Source: Octopus vulgaris
Lineage: Eukaryota
Direction: 5' to 3'
DNA: 64,000 bases
Assembly (NCBI GenBank): GCA_951406725.2
Contig: OX597816.1
Location: 135,656,001-135,720,000 of the forward strand
Shown: piece after piece, positions 34,809 to 62,731 of the stretch
How the letters are laid out: each line of letters starts with the position of its first letter
Numbering within the stretch: the first letter of the stretch is position 1
Position numbers and translations under genes: made by a program
Notes under the pieces: generated by a model
Seen by the model: the letters and a program-made list of their open reading frames with translations, nothing else
Told to the model about the DNA's origin: nothing
Database searches by the model: none

Positions 34809-35205
34809 GGCGCAGGCGTGGCTGCGTGGTAAGAAGCTTGCTTTCCAACCACATGGTTCCAGGTTCAGTCTGAATGTGTGGCACCTTTAGCAAGTATTTT
34901 CTACTATAGCCTCAGGCTGACCAAAGCTTTGTGAATGGATTTAGTTGATGGAAACTGAAAGAAGCTCCTTGTGTGTGCGTGTGTGTGTGTGTGCACCACT
35001 ATCCACTATTGCTTGACAACTGGTGTTGGTGAGTTTATGTTCATATAACTTAGTACCTTAGCAATAGACATAGATAGAGTTAGTACCAGGTTTAACAAAA
35101 AATAAATATTGAGAAGGCGTCAAGACATTCATGTAAAAATTCTTGAAGGTTGTTTTCCCCAGCATGGCTGAAATCTAACGATTGAAACAAGTAAGAGATA
35201 AGACA
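34809..35205 (+). mobile_element. Main-family SINE (older)
   Basis: GGCGCAGGCGTGGCTGCGTGG head, colinear body. Confidence 0.8.
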
Positions 35206-35384
35206 TAAAGTTACATGCTCATTCATACATATTCACATGGTGTATTTGTGGTCATACATGATATAAAGGCTCTGTAACTTCTTGCTGAAAAACCTACACA
35301 TGGACAAATTATTCATTTATTGTGATCAAATTTGTGCTGAACATGAACACACTCAATCCACCAAATGAACATTATTACCTGTAC

Positions 35385-37136
35385 AGGCGCACAGTGTGTC
35401 ACACATTAGATGTTGAAGATATTACGACGAACCTCGTCTAATATGTGGCACTTGGTGAAGAATGGAGTTTGATATAGCTACTCTCATTTGCACCTCTTGC
35501 CGTGAGGTAGGTTCATCTGGGACTCTTGACAGGAAGATGTCCAGCTTTGATTTAAAAACCGCTACATCTACTTTGTGCAAGTTCCTCAGACTCTTTGGGA
35601 GAATATTAAAAAGCTGTGGGCCCTTGAAACCCAGGCTGTTGCAGAAGCTGGTCTTGAAGCATGATGGCATTGCTGGGATCTTTGGCACTATGCAGTGTCG
35701 TCCCGTTCTAGCATTGGTGTAGCTTACAATGCTAAAATTTGGCACAATTCCTTCCAGGATCTTCCAGACATATATTACTGCATACCTCTCCCGTCTTCTC
35801 TCCAGGGAGTAGAGTCTTAGCTGTTTCAACCTTTCCCAGTAGCTGAGCTGTTGCAAAGAGACGATCTTCTTTTTGAATCTTCTCTGGATTGCTTCAAGGT
35901 CCGCTGTTAATTTCACACTGGTGGGTGATCATAGCTGTGAGCAGTAATCCAGGCGGCTGAGGATGAATGTCCGCCAGAAGACCATCATGGTTTCCTTATC
36001 TCTGGTTCTGAATGTTCTTAGGATCCACCCAGCCAGTCATCTGCACTTTGTCGCCATCCTGGTAATGTGCACTTGGAAAGAGGTATCATCACTCATGTCG
36101 ATACCCAGGTCCCTCACAGACTTAGGCTCTGGGATTGAAATTCCCTGTGGACCGGTGTATCCTGTAAGTTTAATATTCAGTTTTGGATGCTGGTAGCACA
36201 GGGCCTGGAATTTTTCAGCATTAAACTGCATATTATTATCCTCAGCCCATCTGTAGATTGAGTCCAACTCCTGCTGCAGGTGTGAAACTTTGCTGGGGTT
36301 CTGTATTTTCTGCGAGACTTTCGTATCATCTACATAGCTGGCCAGAGTGGCTATCCGAGCATTTGAGGGCATATCTGAGAGCGCTACTATAAAAAGCAGG
36401 GGTCCCAAGACAGTGCCCTGTGGAACACTGCTTACTATTTGTGTGTTCATAGAGGTGGCTCCATTAACCACTACTGCCTGACTCCTATCTTTCAGGAAGT
36501 CATGCAACCACACTCCAAGTTTTCCAGCTATGCCGAGGTCACGCAGTTTGTGGCATATCATACCATGATCCACCTTGTCAAAAGCTTTTGCAAAATCAAG
36601 GTAGATTACGTCCACATTTGATTTGTTGAGTAACTGCCTCAACACCCAGTCATAATGCTGTAAGAGCTGGGTCAGGCAGCTCCTACCTGGTCGAAAACCA
36701 TGCTGGGTATCACTCAGCAAGTTATTTTCCTCAAAGAATGCAATTAGTTTCTTTCTGACTATCATTTCCATGACTTTGCTGATGTGTGAAGTCAGAGAGA
36801 TAGGCCTATAGTTTTTGGCATCTGCTCTACTTCCCCCTTTATGTATTGGGCATATTATTCCCTCCTTCGGCTTGCTTAGCAGTTTGCCATTTGCAAGAAA
36901 GCTCTGGAAGAGAATCTTGAGGGGTTTTGCCAGGGCATGCTTACACGCTTTGAGGAGGATGGCTGGGAAACCATCTGGACCAGCAGCTGAGTTTGTGTCC
37001 ACTTCGTCTATGGCTAGTAGGACATCTTTTTCGCTAATGTCAATACATTCTATTGTAACCGCCTCGCTGGTTATAGGTGAGGTGGCAAAGAAGTCCACTG
37101 GTTTGTTCACTTGTCTGTGTTCCAACGGGGTGGAAC
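35385..37136 (-). mobile_element. 5'-truncated CR1-group LINE (RT and C-terminal domain)
   Basis: [53 protein letters not shown]-terminal LEAIQRR...SYWERLKQLRLYSLERRR (35422-35916). One premature stop. Confidence 0.92.
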
Positions 37137-37139
37137 ATA

Positions 37140-37170
<31 letters not shown>

Positions 37171-37214
37171 GTATATATATGTATACATATATATATATAT
37201 ATGTATATATATGT

Positions 37215-37299
<85 letters not shown>

Positions 37300-38060
37300 A
37301 TACGTCAAAAAACTGATGACGTATTACCTCAGTGGTCAAGCTATTGTCACCCTGCTTGGTCGGTTTCCCCACACGATACAGCTATGGGTCAGACCCGATT
37401 CTGATTGGTCAAAACATTGATGACGTCTTGTTCTGCTGGACTAGCCACCTAACAGGATACAGTCATGGGTCAGATCTAATTCGTCAAAAAAATGATGACG
37501 TATTTTTCTCCCGTGGCCAAACTGTCGTTCCACTTGGTTGGTTTCCTAATAGGATACAGTTAGGAGTCTTTTCACTATATTTGTTGAGACTGGGTTTTGA
37601 TTGGTTTGGAACTATATGCCATCAGTGAAAAGTGCAAGTGACCACAGCTTAGCTGAGCTGATATAAATCCAGCAATCACAAAATTCACCAAAATTATGCG
37701 AGCAGACACCGACCAAAAATCATTACTGTTGCTCCCATTGGAACACAAGGTAAAATCTAAAATGAACTCCTCGCCTTTTCAAGAACATGAATTTTTTATA
37801 TTTGACTCTATTGAATGTATGTCACAATTATGAACTACTACATCATACTCTTTAAACATATAGCATGGACTCTCTTTATTATATATGAATTTTTTATATT
37901 TGACTCTATTGAATATATGTCACAATTATGAACTATTACATTATACTCTTTAAACATATAGCATGGACTCTCTTTATTATATATAATTTTTTTTCTTGAT
38001 AAGGTTCGTCATTTCAAGAACCGAAACATGTTAAATTTAAATTAAAATTTGTCTAATATA
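37300..38060 (+). mobile_element. Putative Penelope-like terminal repeat: TGACGT-rich promoter-like repeats, TATA, 98-bp tandem duplication, hammerhead
   Basis: TGATGACGT x3 (37315-37501), GATATAAAT ~37660, duplication 37787-37884/37885-37982, hammerhead core 37996-38032, ATTAAA 38041. Confidence 0.45.
37991..38040 (+). ncRNA. Minimal hammerhead motif, U3-A8 core variant (stem I weak)
   Basis: UUGAUAA, stem II GGUUC/GAACC, GAA, palindromic stem III ACAUGU, cleavage triplet GUU. Confidence 0.5.
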
Positions 38061-38389
38061 GCAGCATTTTCAAACTTCATTTTTTACAAATATATATATA
38101 TATATGTGTGTGTGCTTATATATGCATGTGTGTATGTGTGAGTGCATATACATATAAATGCATATTTATTTACTATTTACTAGGGCTTCCTATTTTTGTA
38201 AAAATGTCTATTGATGAGTATTGCTGTTTATATCTTTCCTGCTGAGATTGCTGCACAGCTGACCATAATTCTTCCTGTTGGACGCATTTTGAATGCATCC
38301 ATCATAACATATGTAGAAGGTATGAAGATATGTTTTAATAACATCTTGAACATTTGTCTCCTTTTTAAATTTTTCCTATATGCATATAC

Positions 38390-38423
<34 letters not shown>

Positions 38424-38611
38424 GTAGGTGGTTCATCAACTTTTAGACATTATATTATGTCAATTTATTTATTTGTTTACTAAAATGACAATTACAAGAA
38501 TATACATACATGTATAACATGTGCTTTACATATAAAATATATAAAGATACCAGTAATTATTAAAATATAACATACAGGAATATTCCTGTATATATATATA
38601 TATATATATAT

Positions 38612-38765
38612 ACCGGAGTAAACACATAAATGTGAAACAAGGTGGAAAAAAGAGCACTCAAATACTAGTGGTAGAGTAATATGCTTTATTCAAAGCAGCA
38701 GAAAATTCAACAAAACCTGTTACTCTGAGTTTCACATTCCCGTTCGTCGGACAGTTTTTGCTAGA
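38612..38765 (-). mobile_element. Penelope-like terminal fragment inserted in (TA)n
   Basis: Hammerhead followed by AATAAA (38685-38690 minus) and a pyrimidine-rich end abutting (TA)n. Confidence 0.6.
38711..38760 (-). ncRNA. Type I minimal hammerhead ribozyme (U4C variant)
   Basis: CAAAAACUGU CCGACGA ACG-GGAA-UGU GAA ACUC-A-GAGU A^ ACAGGUUUUG: 9/10-bp stem I, stem II, near-palindromic stem III, GUA cleavage site. Confidence 0.7.
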
Positions 38766-38824
38766 ATTCTAGTTTTAAATAAAGTATATATATATATATA
38801 TATATATACAGACACACAAATAAA

Positions 38825-39064
38825 TATATATATCTTTATTAATATTTAACAGAAGTTACAGAGTGACTCAAGTTCTGCCAGTTTCATGTATTCGCACTTA
38901 TCAAAGTAGTCACAGGTCGAAGGCTTGTGAGTTTATATAGCTGTTAGCTATATAAACTCACAGGTCTTTGACCTGTGACTGGCTTGATAAGTGTCAATGC
39001 ACGAAACTCTCAGATCTTAAGTCACTCTGTTACCTCTGCTAAATATTAATAAAAATATGCATAT
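38825..39064. repeat. ~240-bp imperfect palindrome; each arm TATA, degenerate hammerhead, AATAAA
   Basis: Centre TGTGAGTTTATATAGCT-GTT-AGCTATATAAACTCACA. Each arm has GTGACT..TTGATAAGTG..CA(C/T)GAAACT..AGTCAC..TTAATAAA. Confidence 0.85.
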
Positions 39065-39133
39065 ACTCATGTTTTAAGTTCTATTTTACTCTTTTGCACC
39101 AACATACCTTTATACATATATGTATGTATGTAT

Positions 39134-39165
<32 letters not shown>

Positions 39166-39299
39166 ATATATATATACATATATATACATACATACATACA
39201 TATATATATATATATACATACATACATACATATATATACATACACCCCCCCACACATATATATATATATACACCTCATGTTTATTCTTTCATACATATA

Positions 39300-39900
39300 T
39301 CGGGTTGGGTTGTCAAATAAAATCATTTGTTTCTCTCCAACGTTATTTGAATTAACACATTTTTTTTTGTTTTTTGCAGCTCTATTCTTCTGCTACAACT
39401 CTTGTTGATTGTTTTTGAAATTTAAATAAATTTTACCTCTTTTCAGATATATGACAATGGAGCACCAAGTAGGAAAAAGAACAATCATTTTTGACACCTG
39501 CTTCTGTTTGCTTTCATTCAAGGTTTCAAAGTTGCTAAATCTACACGAGACATTTGTGCTGTGTATGGAGAAGGTGCTATGACACCAAACTGCATAATGG
39601 TCTTCATGCTTCAAGGAGATAAACTGGACATCATAGCAGCCGACCTATTTACTCCAATGAATATCAATTCTGCTAGTCCAATAGGAAATTGGCCAAGCTG
39701 ATGGGCTGCTTCCATGATTACAAACACTCGTCACCTTCACTCAATAGTTAAGGTCCAAAAACTTGATGCATGGCACCACAGATTCTGAATGAAAGACAAA
39801 CTCCAGAGCTTCTCTATGACTGGCATTTTGCTCACTTAACATTAGGCCACACATGGGCACAAATTTCTTATTGTTCACTAACTTCCTTTCCAGCTGATGA
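39300..39900 (+). mobile_element. Mariner transposase pseudogene (N-terminal part)
   Basis: MEHQV..NNHF*HLLLFAFIQGFKVAKSTRDICAVYGEGAM from ~39456, and KVQKLDAW (WVPH-motif region) ~39750. Confidence 0.75.
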
Positions 39901-41722
39901 CAGAGATAGAGAGAGAGAGATACTGGTAGATTCTCTCTCTCATGCATTTCTCCACATTTATCAACCTCTCATAGTAGCACTTCTGTGTTGCTTTCTTTTC
40001 AGTATCAGTGAGTGCAAGTGCACCATTATCACTCCATAAACATTTCCACAATCACATTTCAATTCTTTCCAGTAGACTTGTTATTCTGAAAACCTCACAC
40101 CTCTGATTCTCACATGTCAGAACATGTGTAGGCTTCTTTCTTTCCATTTCTCCCATTGTTAATTATACCCAATGCATAGCTTTCCTGGCTACATATTTCT
40201 CTGCAGCATTATCCACTATCATGTCACTGTCTGGGTGAGACCTTGCACCAAACACATATTTGGTTTGCAGCCTTTCAGTATGTTGTGCTTTAGAAATTTC
40301 TAGTTTTTCACTGTCATAAGTCTCAAACTCCTCTTACTTCTTGTCAATGCATCAAATAGTATTTCTCTGAACCTGATGTTTGTTCAGTGGCTCATTGAGC
40401 TTTTATATTTTCCTTCACCGAGCTACCTCTAGCCTCTGGTTTTATCAAGTTTTTATTCTAAAATCAATAACTTATTTTAAGTGGTACATTTTTTACCAGA
40501 AAAAGACTGATACCATTTTCTGGTAAAAATGGAGTGTATCTAGCATTTATGTTCACCTCATTGCTAAATAATTAGCTGGTTTCCTTCAATTGCTAACTGC
40601 TGCAAACGGTTACATCATTTGCATCACAAAATTCCAGAAGCCTTGATTTTTGGCAATGTTGATGTTGGCATGATTTGAGCTCAAAAGTGTAGACAGCTTG
40701 AATACCACATGGCGTTCTGTCTTTTTAACTGTTTGTTACTATGAGACATTTTGCAACCCCAACCTTTCCTAATCTTAAATGGTTGGGTGTAATATGAGGG
40801 AATATTGGTTGCTATATCTAGCAGATTGCACACCAGTGTGGAAGCCTTCCCTCATATGTTCAATGTAAACATAGTTGTCGTGCGGTCCCAGATCAGTCGT
40901 AAATGAAAAAACTGTGAAGAAAAGCACTTCAATCACAACAAATTTGTCATTCATATATTAGGAACTACAATGTTCAATATAGCCTTAATTTAAGAGTGTT
41001 GATTTATAAAATTTGGATACTATTATGAGTAAGTTGAATGACAACTGAACTGTTGTTTACCAAACCCTGACATGTCTGATGATATAAGTGTTTGCTATAA
41101 CTGCAATGTCTTTTTCATTATTTACGCAAATACAGCTTTCAGACAGAACTAAAACACATAGAAGTGTAAAATTATATCAAACCAAAACAAACTTTATATT
41201 TAGAACTGCATCTTGATTGGGAATGAGTTTTTTTCTTCAACTCATCATTTAATGTATTTTGCTTGGTGTACTTTAGCAAAACAGTCTCATTTTTATAATA
41301 GTGAACATCACTATAATTTAACATCTACTTTTCCATGCTTGCATGGATCAAATGGATTTTCTATAGTTGGATATCTTTACCTGCCACTAACCCTCGCCTG
41401 TTTCCAAGCAAAGTAATGTTTTCCTGATAGCCAAATGTTTACGATGGAAGACTAGGAATAAATAACTTCGCTTCCATAATGATGATGCTCATTAAAACCA
41501 TGACATGATGTCAAGACAAGGGTACATACATACATATGCATATACAGGGTTTATTTTCGTTTCTGTCCACTAAATCCAATCACAAAGTGAAAGACATTTA
41601 CCAAAGGTGCTATGTAGTGGGACTGAACCCAAAACCACATAGTCAGGGAGCAAGTTTGTTAACCACAGAGCCATGCAAAGCTATTTGCATATGGTCAAAA
41701 TAACTCAGTTGACAGAGTTTTA

Positions 41723-41943
41723 CCCTTTAAGCATTTAAAGCAGCCATATCTGGTCAAAATATTCAACCTGTTTTATGTTCAAAATGGCCGGATATGGCTT
41801 CTGAAACCAACCCTACAATATCATAGTGAAAATGAACAGTTACCTCACCAAAATCTCAAAGCTACAAGATAATGCATGATTATTTCAAAATAACGTGTAT
41901 AAATAAGCATTACTTTTGATGGAATAATGTGAATGCTAAAGGG
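41723..41943. mobile_element. piggyBac-type MITE
   Basis: TIRs CCCTTT(A)AGCATT / AATGCTAAAGGG followed by TTAA. Relatives at 55999-56872 and 59722-60353. Confidence 0.7.
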
Positions 41944-43529
41944 TTAAACTAGGGCTCCTTGGTTCAATATAAATTGAGTTGAGGGCTCAAGGAATACTTA
42001 GATGTTAATGAGATTCAGTTTTATTCTTGAAATTATTACCAATCCTCATGTCTTGAGTTTGACTTGGGAGGGTGATAGAAGCAGTTTTTCCAAACATGTA
42101 TTGAAATAGACATATAAACATCATTGTATTAAGACTTGGGGAGATAGATTGGCAAAATAGAGCATTGGACAAAATGCCTTGCAGTATTTCTTTAAGCTCT
42201 TTGTATTCTAGGTTCAAATCTCACGAAAGTCAACTTTCCCTTTCATCCCTCAAGTAACGGGGTGCAGATACTACTCAAATAATAAAGGTTTGATAGTATC
42301 AGTAATCACTATCCCACAATTTCCAGGCCTTGTGCCTTTCCTAGAATATTACATTAAGACTCACTCCTCGTCGAAGGAATACATACTTTGAAGATAAGAA
42401 GGTTTCATTTCATAGACTAGATATATGGTAATCAATTATGTCAAACGGAAGTGTCTCAATTTAACAGAATTTGTGATTATGCAACGAAGTCACTCAATTC
42501 AGAATTTACAGAATGTAGTACCTGTAGTGTCAAATGGGAAAAATTAACCATCTGATTCCTAGATCATAATACCTGAATCATCATCATCTTAAATGCTTGC
42601 ATGAAATTTGTTTTATGGCCAGATACCCATCCTGCCATCAACCCTCACTTGTTTCCAAGTTACAGTAATATTTCTCTATGACCAGACACACTCTCCTGAA
42701 GCCTGGAAGTGGGGGTCATAGGATTGCAATTCATTTCCAATTTGTCCTCTTATCATCAACAAAAAAATCTAAGACCAGAACACTATTTAGAATAAAGAGT
42801 AAAGTGAGTTGACAGCTTATAGCTGGCTGCTGGTCATAAATTTCATACTGTCACAAGTAACCCTCGACCCACAAAAAACCCCCACAAAAACTTTAGAAAG
42901 AATCAATTAGATAGGGAAGTGCAGGAGGAGAGTGGGAGATAGCAGGATAGAGATGGTGGCAAAATACTGGACATACTCACAAGGAACGGGGATGAGAGTA
43001 TAAATGGGATGGTTGAGTAAAGGAAGAGAAAGATATAGACAGTGGCAAGTGCCAGGGCATACCCTTGAAGTTCAAATGCCATAATATAAGTGGCAGGATA
43101 TTGCGAAGGGAGTGTAATTAAAGAGTGCGAGTAAGTAGTAAAAGATCTGGGTATATACAGAGTTGGGGGGGGGTAGCAGATAGCAATGATATAGAGGAAC
43201 AGGGGTGTGAGGACATGATTGTGGAGTGTATGAAGGAGGAAATGTGAGAAAGAGGGGAGATGTGGAGGTGTAGATTGGTTTGTTGGAGTAGGGCAAGGGA
43301 AAAGTTGTCTTGTTATGTGTGGGTGGAACACCCAGGTCAGGAGCTAGCAGATAGCAATAATAGAGTGAGACAGGGCATGTGGGTAGAAGGCACAGGGATT
43401 GGGAAGTAATCATAATACATAAAGTGGAAATGCGAGGAAGAAAAGAGATGTAGAGACGTAGTTTGGTTTGTTGTGGTAGATTGTGTGAGAAATTTTCTTA
43501 AGTGTGGGTGGCACACACAGTGCTTCTAG

Positions 43530-61995: not shown

Positions 61996-62731
61996 CGTAC
62001 ATATATAAATATATTCCATAATTGTTAGTCCAATAAAATATTCTATTTCACCTATGGCTCCTGATGAGCCACAAGCAAAACAATATATTCTATCAAACTA
62101 ATGATTATGGATTAAATAATTTAATTACATGCAAACTTATCTTTGAGTATTTAATACTTAGCGGCCACATATATCTTCTTTATGAACTTGTCACCCACTG
62201 GAATGTGTGTGTGTGTGTGTGTGCATGCGAGCATGTGTGTATTTGGAAAAAGAAAAGTTAAATACAGATAGCATCTAGCAATGCAGAAAGTGATAGGAAA
62301 GCTTTTATATTTCAGGCACAAAAGCCTATCTTCAGACGGAAGCAGTCCAAACAAAACTTTCTGCATTGTGAGAAATTTTCTTTATTTCCCTTTCCTTTTT
62401 CTACATCTGTACCGCAACACTCTTATGTGTGTGTGTGTGTGTATACACTGGTTATATAACTAGTATGTTTTACAACTCTTATATGTTTGCATGAAGTTCT
62501 ATTACTTGATGAGGTGTTTTCTGCAATATTAAATATCACTAGCTTCTAGTGATTTAACAAATCTGATTTTTTTTGTTTAGTTGTTTTTTTTCCTACAAGA
62601 AGAAACAGTGTCCATACACTTTGCCAGTCCTTCTAAATTTATTTAAGAAACTTAATTGTATTTTTGATAATGTAAATAACCATATACAAAAACATTTTAT
62701 TTTTTTAAAGTTTTTATAATTTATTATCATA

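What the first reader, a model, noticed from the sequence alone, without database searches (positions are those of the whole stretch)
37991..39064. Cluster of four Penelope-type minimal hammerhead ribozyme motifs in ~1.1 kb, with non-canonical cores
Seen: (a) plus 37996-38032 UUGAUAA-GGUUC/GAACC-GAA-ACAUGU-U; (b) minus 38711-38760, a nearly complete type I fold with 9/10-bp stem I, CCGACGA core and GUA site, followed by AAUAAA; (c,d) both arms of the 38825-39064 palindrome carry UUGAUAA-GUG..CA(C/U)-GAAACU inside a GUGACU/AGUCAC stem. Established: the hammerhead C3-G8 tertiary pair covaries as U3-A8, and Penelope-like elements carry minimal hammerheads with short palindromic stem III that act as dimers. 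Inference: three different non-coding PLE-derived or retrozyme-like families piled into one (TA)n-rich site. Motif (b) and perhaps (a) could still cleave.
Basis: partly seen in the sequence, partly recalled or inferred. Interest (0 to 1): 0.75.

Follow-up and report, generated by a model that had tools for sequence, protein, structure and literature searches.

The report
Three Penelope retroelement ends with hammerheads
The four motifs are real hammerhead-shaped RNA sequences left by three unrelated Penelope-type jumping genes that landed in one TA-rich spot; this is a known arrangement, the copies here carry damage that likely weakens them, and cutting is untested, though one lineage spread to thousands of copies with an unusual core.

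Summary
The four motifs are present and exceed chance. They are truncated 3' ends (pLTRs) of Penelope-like elements (PLEs) inserted in (TA)n, not retrozymes. (a) ends a Neptune/Nematis-type PLE with a 781-aa RT plus GIY-YIG frame. (b) ends a Hydra-clade PLE with intact 727-aa copies. (c,d) are one fold-back insertion of an old family; no protein partner found. All four window copies have lost pairs relative to their families. PLE hammerheads, U3-A8 cores, fold-backs, tails and (TA)n targeting are published. Two side results: a CCGAYGA (U4C) core defines a whole amplified sublineage of family (b) and recurs in an unrelated family; and 0 of 93 family-(b) arms begin at the cut site, while 48 end 30-48 nt upstream, with an edge at an initiator-like A. 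This suggests uncleaved, linear templates. The pile-up did not repeat in family (a). The scan has noted PLE hammerheads, including a CCGAUGA core, elsewhere in this genome. Interest is modest.

The parts
37301..38090 (+). Family A: 5'-truncated 3' UTR/pLTR of a Neptune/Nematis-type PLE, between (TA)n runs, without the optional tail
   Evidence: 93% over 828 nt to L064 and 94% to L067, starting about 250 nt after the stop of their RT/GIY-YIG frame
37787..37992 (+). 2.1 copies of a 98-bp unit inside the family A pLTR
   Evidence: copy number varies among family members
37996..38032 (+). Motif (a): minimal type I hammerhead, U3-A8 core, 5-bp stem II, palindromic CAUG stem III, GUU site; C at 37995 breaks the first stem I pair
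38613..38767 (-). Family B long arm: 3' end of a Hydra-clade PLE, U4C sublineage, with AAUAAA (38690-38685) and a tail of about 70 nt; its 5' end lies 47 nt upstream of the cut site
   Evidence: 152 of 156 nt match L018, 144 of 156 match intact L313
38710..38761 (-). Motif (b): type I hammerhead, CCGACGA core, 3-pair stem II with GGAA loop, palindromic CUC-A-GAG stem III, GUA site after 38721
38768..38784 (+). Remnant of the inverted second arm of the family B insertion, ending at AAAUAAAG
   Evidence: same end point in other copies
38824..38942 (-). Family C inverted arm with motif (d): core 38904-38898, GUC site after 38865; core intact, 7 of 9 tested pairs kept
38946..39108 (+). Family C direct arm with motif (c): core 38984-38990, GUC site after 39023; core intact, 7 of 9 tested pairs kept; followed by AAUAAA and a tail to about 39108

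Best explanation
The cluster is three separate, truncated insertions of Penelope-like retrotransposon ends into TA microsatellite, and each end carries the hammerhead motif that likely helps the intact element cut its RNA, while the damaged copies here are likely passive passengers. Shown: family membership, the link of A and B to RT plus GIY-YIG frames, fold-back and tail structure, (TA)n flanks, lost pairs in the window copies. Inferred from PLE work (PMC11167929): the element's protein nicks AT-rich DNA and starts reverse transcription at one of two internal sites downstream of the hammerhead (giving arms with and without the tail), then copies back across the still uncut ribozyme. Early stops and strand switches leave the short fold-backs. 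In intact elements the hammerhead would trim tandem or read-through transcripts, as a dimer (A, B) or with protein help; C has a stem III long enough for a monomer but also a more stable inactive fold.
For: Each part has many genomic relatives (1151-1536 first-look candidates, 40 scored each; 5462 exact hits of a B 25-mer; 151 of an A 30-mer). At least 9 of 29 other A loci have the end of the 781-aa frame directly upstream, best segments 92-95% identical. Full elements carry the A motif on both sides of the frames; Pfam GIY-YIG above cut-off, RVT_1 at E 1e-6 just under it. All 20 loci fetched around full-length B frames hold a 726-728-aa frame and a CUGAUGA hammerhead; one is a tandem with a 3431-bp period. 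The B motif shares stem I, stem III and the GUA site with the coral Hydra-2 motif in File S2 of PMC8557442. B arms end at two fixed 3' points, 40 with and 53 without tail. 88 of 93 B arms and 30 of 30 A copies run across the cut site.
Against: No cleavage was measured. No protein partner was found for C, and its tail likeness to B is weak (7 and 15 of 1000 shuffles reach the score; A against C does as well, 5 of 1000). Clade names rest on motifs, not on a tree with reference elements. A cut and re-joined circular RNA would also give copies that cross the cut site. Within-family pair counts show decay, not covariation. Sharing a site is uncommon in unbiased samples: 1 of 30 A loci had B within 1.5 kb, and 0 of 30 B loci had A or C.
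Confidence: 0.85

Rival explanations
1. Non-coding retrozyme-like families that spread as small circular RNAs.
For: Family C has no found open frame. Most B copies are under 200 nt. Unchecked earlier notes report a 359-nt retrozyme elsewhere in this genome.
Against: A and B join directly to PLE coding frames. No short head-to-tail arrays among the loci read; the one close direct pair was a local duplication with its flanks. B ends stop 30-48 nt upstream of the cut site, which a circle does not explain.
Confidence: 0.07
2. The cluster is a functional host RNA element: a transcript through the site self-cleaves or forms a long hairpin used by the host.
For: All four cores are intact; (b) keeps 9 of 10 stem I pairs; the C palindrome would form about 115 bp of duplex.
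Against: Motifs lie on both strands, cannot dimerise with each other (different stems III), and show losses at the rate of other old copies: 17 of 45 C arms keep the core, 7 of 45 keep core and 9 pairs.
Confidence: 0.04
3. The motifs are chance matches inside ordinary AT-rich repeats or MITEs.
For: Rfam found no hammerhead; shuffled windows give up to 5 descriptor hits; the hammerhead is not the lowest-energy monomer fold for B or C.
Against: Unrelated stem sequences pair around the same core in families A, B, C and three further families, at the place in the pLTR where PLE hammerheads are published.
Confidence: 0.04

Closest known systems
Minimal hammerheads of metazoan PLEs (Cervera and de la Pena 2014, PMC4209133; parts 1-2 of 4 read, supplements not seen)
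   Same: Type I, in pLTRs, short palindromic stem III (A, B), U3-A8 variant (about 1,300 hits in Schistosoma mansoni), opposite-strand pairs 100-700 bp apart, mostly single truncated copies.
   Different: U4C is not mentioned in the parts read; family C joins U3-A8 to a 4-bp stem III with a 9-nt loop, more like the fungal and protist PLE motifs.
Hydra-clade PLEs (Craig et al. 2021, PMC8557442; section 11, passages and supplement parts read)
   Same: RWK, DKT, CxxC and CxH motifs, C-terminal endonuclease, (TA)n target, hammerhead nearly identical in stems I and III to Hydra-2_aMil.
   Different: Not the listed Hydra-1_Obim (other hammerhead; 0 matches for 3 peptide motifs in the supplement); unit about 3.4 kb; CxCx5C is complete in L250 but C-N-F in the intact copies; one sublineage has U4C.
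Neptune/Nematis PLEs (as described in PMC8557442)
   Same: GLKF, DKG, YLDD, Cx4CxxC linker, C-terminal GIY-YIG, pLTR at both ends, optional 30-40 nt tail.
   Different: Neptune against Nematis not resolved; an upstream 479-aa frame is present; core is U3-A8.
Anolis Poseidon element PAc (Frangieh et al. 2024, PMC11167929; parts 1-2 of 4 read)
   Same: Two internal start sites that define the tail; unprocessed RNA as main template; no RNA-seq reads ending at the cut site.
   Different: Here the evidence is genomic only, and B shows a pile-up of 5' ends just upstream of the ribozyme, not described in the parts read.
Metazoan non-LTR retrozymes (PMC7229834, passages; bioRxiv 2026.07.22.740005, part 1 of 5)
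   Same: Type I hammerhead, PLE-related.
   Different: Retrozymes are short non-coding tandem repeats; these are dispersed truncated ends and fold-backs.

Membership tests
Penelope-like element (family A) | RT and C-terminal GIY-YIG in one frame, linked to this 3' end | tested here: met
Penelope-like element (family A) | pLTR with hammerhead on both sides of the frames; optional tail | tested here: met
   L120, L122, L123, L127; tail in some copies
Neptune clade (family A) | Placement in the RT tree apart from Nematis | not tested
   Linker Cx4CxxC is shared by both clades; no reference sequences in the script box
Hydra clade (family B) | RWK, DKT, CxxC and CxH motifs, C-terminal endonuclease | tested here: met
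   727-aa frame against the definition
Hydra clade (family B) | CxCx5C linker | tested here: inconclusive
   complete in L250, second C replaced by F in intact copies
Hydra clade (family B) | (TA)n insertion and 3' hammerhead | tested here: met
Hydra clade (family B) | Placement in the RT tree | not tested
   motif comparison only
Penelope-like element (family C) | Fold-back with tail at one end, (TA)n or microsatellite flanks, 3' hammerhead | tested here: met
Penelope-like element (family C) | Linked RT and GIY-YIG frame | tested here: inconclusive
   none found in 20 loci of 6-7 kb or in shorter loci; two nearby hits were not contiguous with C; family is old, 85% to majority
Type I hammerhead ribozyme | Core nucleotides and three stems in order | tested here: met
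   family level for A, B, C; variants U3-A8 and U4C are natural active variants per PMC3088659
Type I hammerhead ribozyme | Covarying stems | tested here: inconclusive
   no compensatory changes within C; stems differ and still pair between families and A subfamilies
Type I hammerhead ribozyme | Self-cleavage after NUH | not testable with these tools
   no raw reads available; 0 of 93 B and 0 of 30 A genomic copies begin at the site
Non-LTR retrozyme | Short non-coding unit in head-to-tail tandem | tested here: not met
Non-LTR retrozyme | Abundant circular RNA | not testable with these tools
   contigs only

The most novel reading that the evidence does not exclude
CCGANGA (U4C) is a working, repeatedly evolved hammerhead core of PLE ends in this animal, missed by CUGANGA descriptors; and the thousands of 160-nt family B inserts are strong-stop-like cDNAs, made from an internal start site to the 5' end of a linear, uncut RNA whose start lies 47 nt upstream of the cut site. 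The genome would then record where the PLE transcript starts and show that the ribozyme stays off during insertion.
Probability: 0.3. Interest if true: 0.55.

Novelty: new member of a known kind. Interest (0 to 1): 0.3.

Why it matters
The cluster itself is ordinary transposon debris. Its value is as an entry to a natural experiment on an open question, what PLE hammerheads do. Two sister lineages of one Hydra-clade element, one CUGAUGA and one CCGAYGA, both amplified, and insertion ends show that copies are made across the cut site. Intact 727-aa and 781-aa elements exist for in vitro work. Descriptors limited to CUGANGA would miss most motifs seen here.

Tried and rejected
Rfam: no hammerhead in 35000-42000. 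A Pfam accession recalled from memory was not in the library. Lunse et al. 2017 on PLE hammerhead dimers is not held and may already list U4C or long stem III variants; supplements of PMC4209133 were not opened. Partner for C: two upstream walks and translated searches with three PLE proteins found no contiguous frame. Homology of C to B: seemed visible by eye, not supported above the A-against-C control. Copies starting at the cut site: none in B or A. Pile-up at a start site in A: not seen, ends scatter from about 33 to over 1460 nt upstream (rough chained estimates). Intron in the A pLTR: no joint in contigs of 4 runs. Expression: no RNA holder listed as such, contigs only; contigs on the cluster show family sequence and none spans the stretch, so nothing follows for this locus. 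Full-length frame tied to U4C: of 25 loci from a U4C-seeded search, 2 were U4C (open frames 177 and 334 aa), 16 U4, 7 without a motif in reach; not exhaustive. Earlier scan notes by sequence or words: none. Paper searches for octopus plus hammerhead, U4C or U3-A8, CCGAUGA-type words and strong-stop or uncleaved templates gave, by their listings, nothing on these families.

Full report
Observation. The window lies in a 2.8-Gb genome of 227 contigs; an octopus is likely, by inference from size and from earlier scan notes. A relaxed descriptor finds 4 sites in the region against at most 1 in 1000 shuffles, and 6 in the window against 0-5 in 20 shuffles. Rfam has no hammerhead match.

Three insertions. 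Each part is a dispersed repeat with (TA)n or other microsatellite flanks. Family A spans 37301-38090, family B 38613-38784 and family C 38824-39108. Motifs (c) and (d) are the two arms of one fold-back, 83% alike over 119 nt. Sharing a site recurs but is not the rule: 3 of 29 other best-hit B loci had A or C nearby, against 1 of 30 A loci and 0 of 30 B loci in unbiased samples.

Family A is the end of a coding element. A GIY-YIG search of the genome gave 148 matches, and 21 of the 30 loci fetched carried the A end. Longer stretches show pLTR, a 479-aa frame, a 781-aa frame and a second pLTR. The 781-aa protein has RVT_1 (E 1.1e-6, just under cut-off) and GIY-YIG (over cut-off), with GLKF, DKG, YLDD and a Cx4CxxC linker: Neptune or Nematis type by PMC8557442. 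At least 9 of 29 close relatives of the window copy have the end of this frame upstream, and the window copy starts about 250 nt past the stop. The family motif is U3-A8 core, 4-5 bp stem II, palindromic CAUG, GUU or GUA site and a weak U/A stem I. The window copy alone among 55 has C at the first stem I position.

Family B is the end of a Hydra-clade element. Walking upstream reached an endonuclease and RT. A protein search gave many 727-aa frames; all 20 loci fetched hold one, with RWK, DKT, CxxC and CxH, and a CUGAUGA hammerhead; one is a tandem of 3431 bp. These are the Hydra features of PMC8557442, whose File S2 lists a coral motif with the same stem I, stem III and GUA site. That paper lists another octopus Hydra family, not this one. 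The window copy belongs to a sister lineage with CCGAYGA. A tree of 89 pLTRs, built without core and stem II, splits 25 C4 rows from 64 U4 rows at 99/97 (bootstrap not settled; rows limited to copies with long upstream sequence). In an unbiased sample 37 arms have C4, 35 U4 and 21 no readable core. A pattern for the C4 lineage has 2073 exact hits, 95 of the first 100 with C4. Stem II in that lineage varies (ACG-GCAA-CGG, -CGU, ACG-GGAA-CGU) and keeps a GNRA loop. U4C lowers activity in vitro but supports viroid infection (PMC3088659, passages and section 8). An unrelated family met in the flanks has CCGACGA in 8 of 12 copies, so U4C is not a one-off.

The family is old: 85% to majority, 7 exact hits of a 34-letter pattern. 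17 of 45 arms keep the core and 7 keep core plus 9 pairs; both window arms keep the core and 7 pairs. Fold-back, tail and flanks are those of a PLE, but no coding partner was found.

How the copies were made. I sampled 93 B arms, from 74 loci covering most of the first 100 listed hits of a 25-mer that starts 12 nt past the cut site. None starts at the site and 88 run at least 10 nt past it. 48 end 30-48 nt upstream and 23 go further. The rate of ending per base is 0.076 at 38-48, against 0.008 at 5-29 and 0.006 at 49-160. The outer edge falls on the A of C(C/U)AUUCU, which fits the initiator consensus YYANWYY (recalled), and the window copy ends on that A. Arms of one fold-back are not independent and microhomology shifts ends, but single-arm inserts also cluster there. 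3' ends fall at two points, with and without tail, as for the two internal start sites of the Anolis element, where unprocessed RNA is the main template and the ribozyme needs the protein (PMC11167929). In A, 30 of 30 copies also cross the site, but with no pile-up. The start-site reading is therefore an inference from one family.

Comparison and verdict. Hammerheads in PLE ends, U3-A8, dimer folding, low activity, opposite-strand pairs, tails and (TA)n targeting are all in print. Computed co-folding gives the expected stem III dimer for family-typical A and B, and not for the window copy of (b) in full hammerhead form. Recently active Penelope families are reported for Octopus vulgaris with no mention of ribozymes (PMC13282606, passages). 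The retrozyme reading fails for A and B. I found no paper on these families or on U4C in PLEs, but Lunse et al. 2017 could not be read. This is a new member of a known kind, interest 0.3; the U4C lineage and the end map are the parts worth testing.

Noticed in passing
window 62306-62335, minus strand: A fifth minimal hammerhead-like motif with canonical CUGAAGA core, 4-bp stem II and UA stem III; stem I poor. No relative among the first 119 loci.
   Followed up: partly
L026:1304, L218:1214, L386:2008 and nine more loci: An unrelated repeat family with a complete small hammerhead; core CCGACGA in 8 of 12 copies, CUGACGA in 2.
   Followed up: partly
L108:21 and L132:1719 (one genomic place): Another U3-A8 hammerhead with a perfect 5-bp stem I, CAUG stem III and GUC site.
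   Followed up: partly
L126, L152, L210, L314: A further family with CUGAAGA core and palindromic CAAUUG stem III.
   Followed up: partly
window 37300-37760: Promoter-like words in the family A pLTR: repeated CCAAT boxes, TGACGT motifs, a TATA-like site at 37660 and a possible splice donor near 37750; no splice joint in contigs.
   Followed up: partly
L313:1741-8601: Head-to-tail tandem of two intact Hydra-clade units with three hammerheads, the layout needed for dimer cleavage.
   Followed up: partly
first 100 hits: 5 copies of the C4 lineage read CTG in place of CCG, as CpG decay would give, which returns the canonical core.
   Followed up: no
window 38190-38580: The spacer between families A and B is itself made of other repeats (contig depth); not identified.
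   Followed up: no
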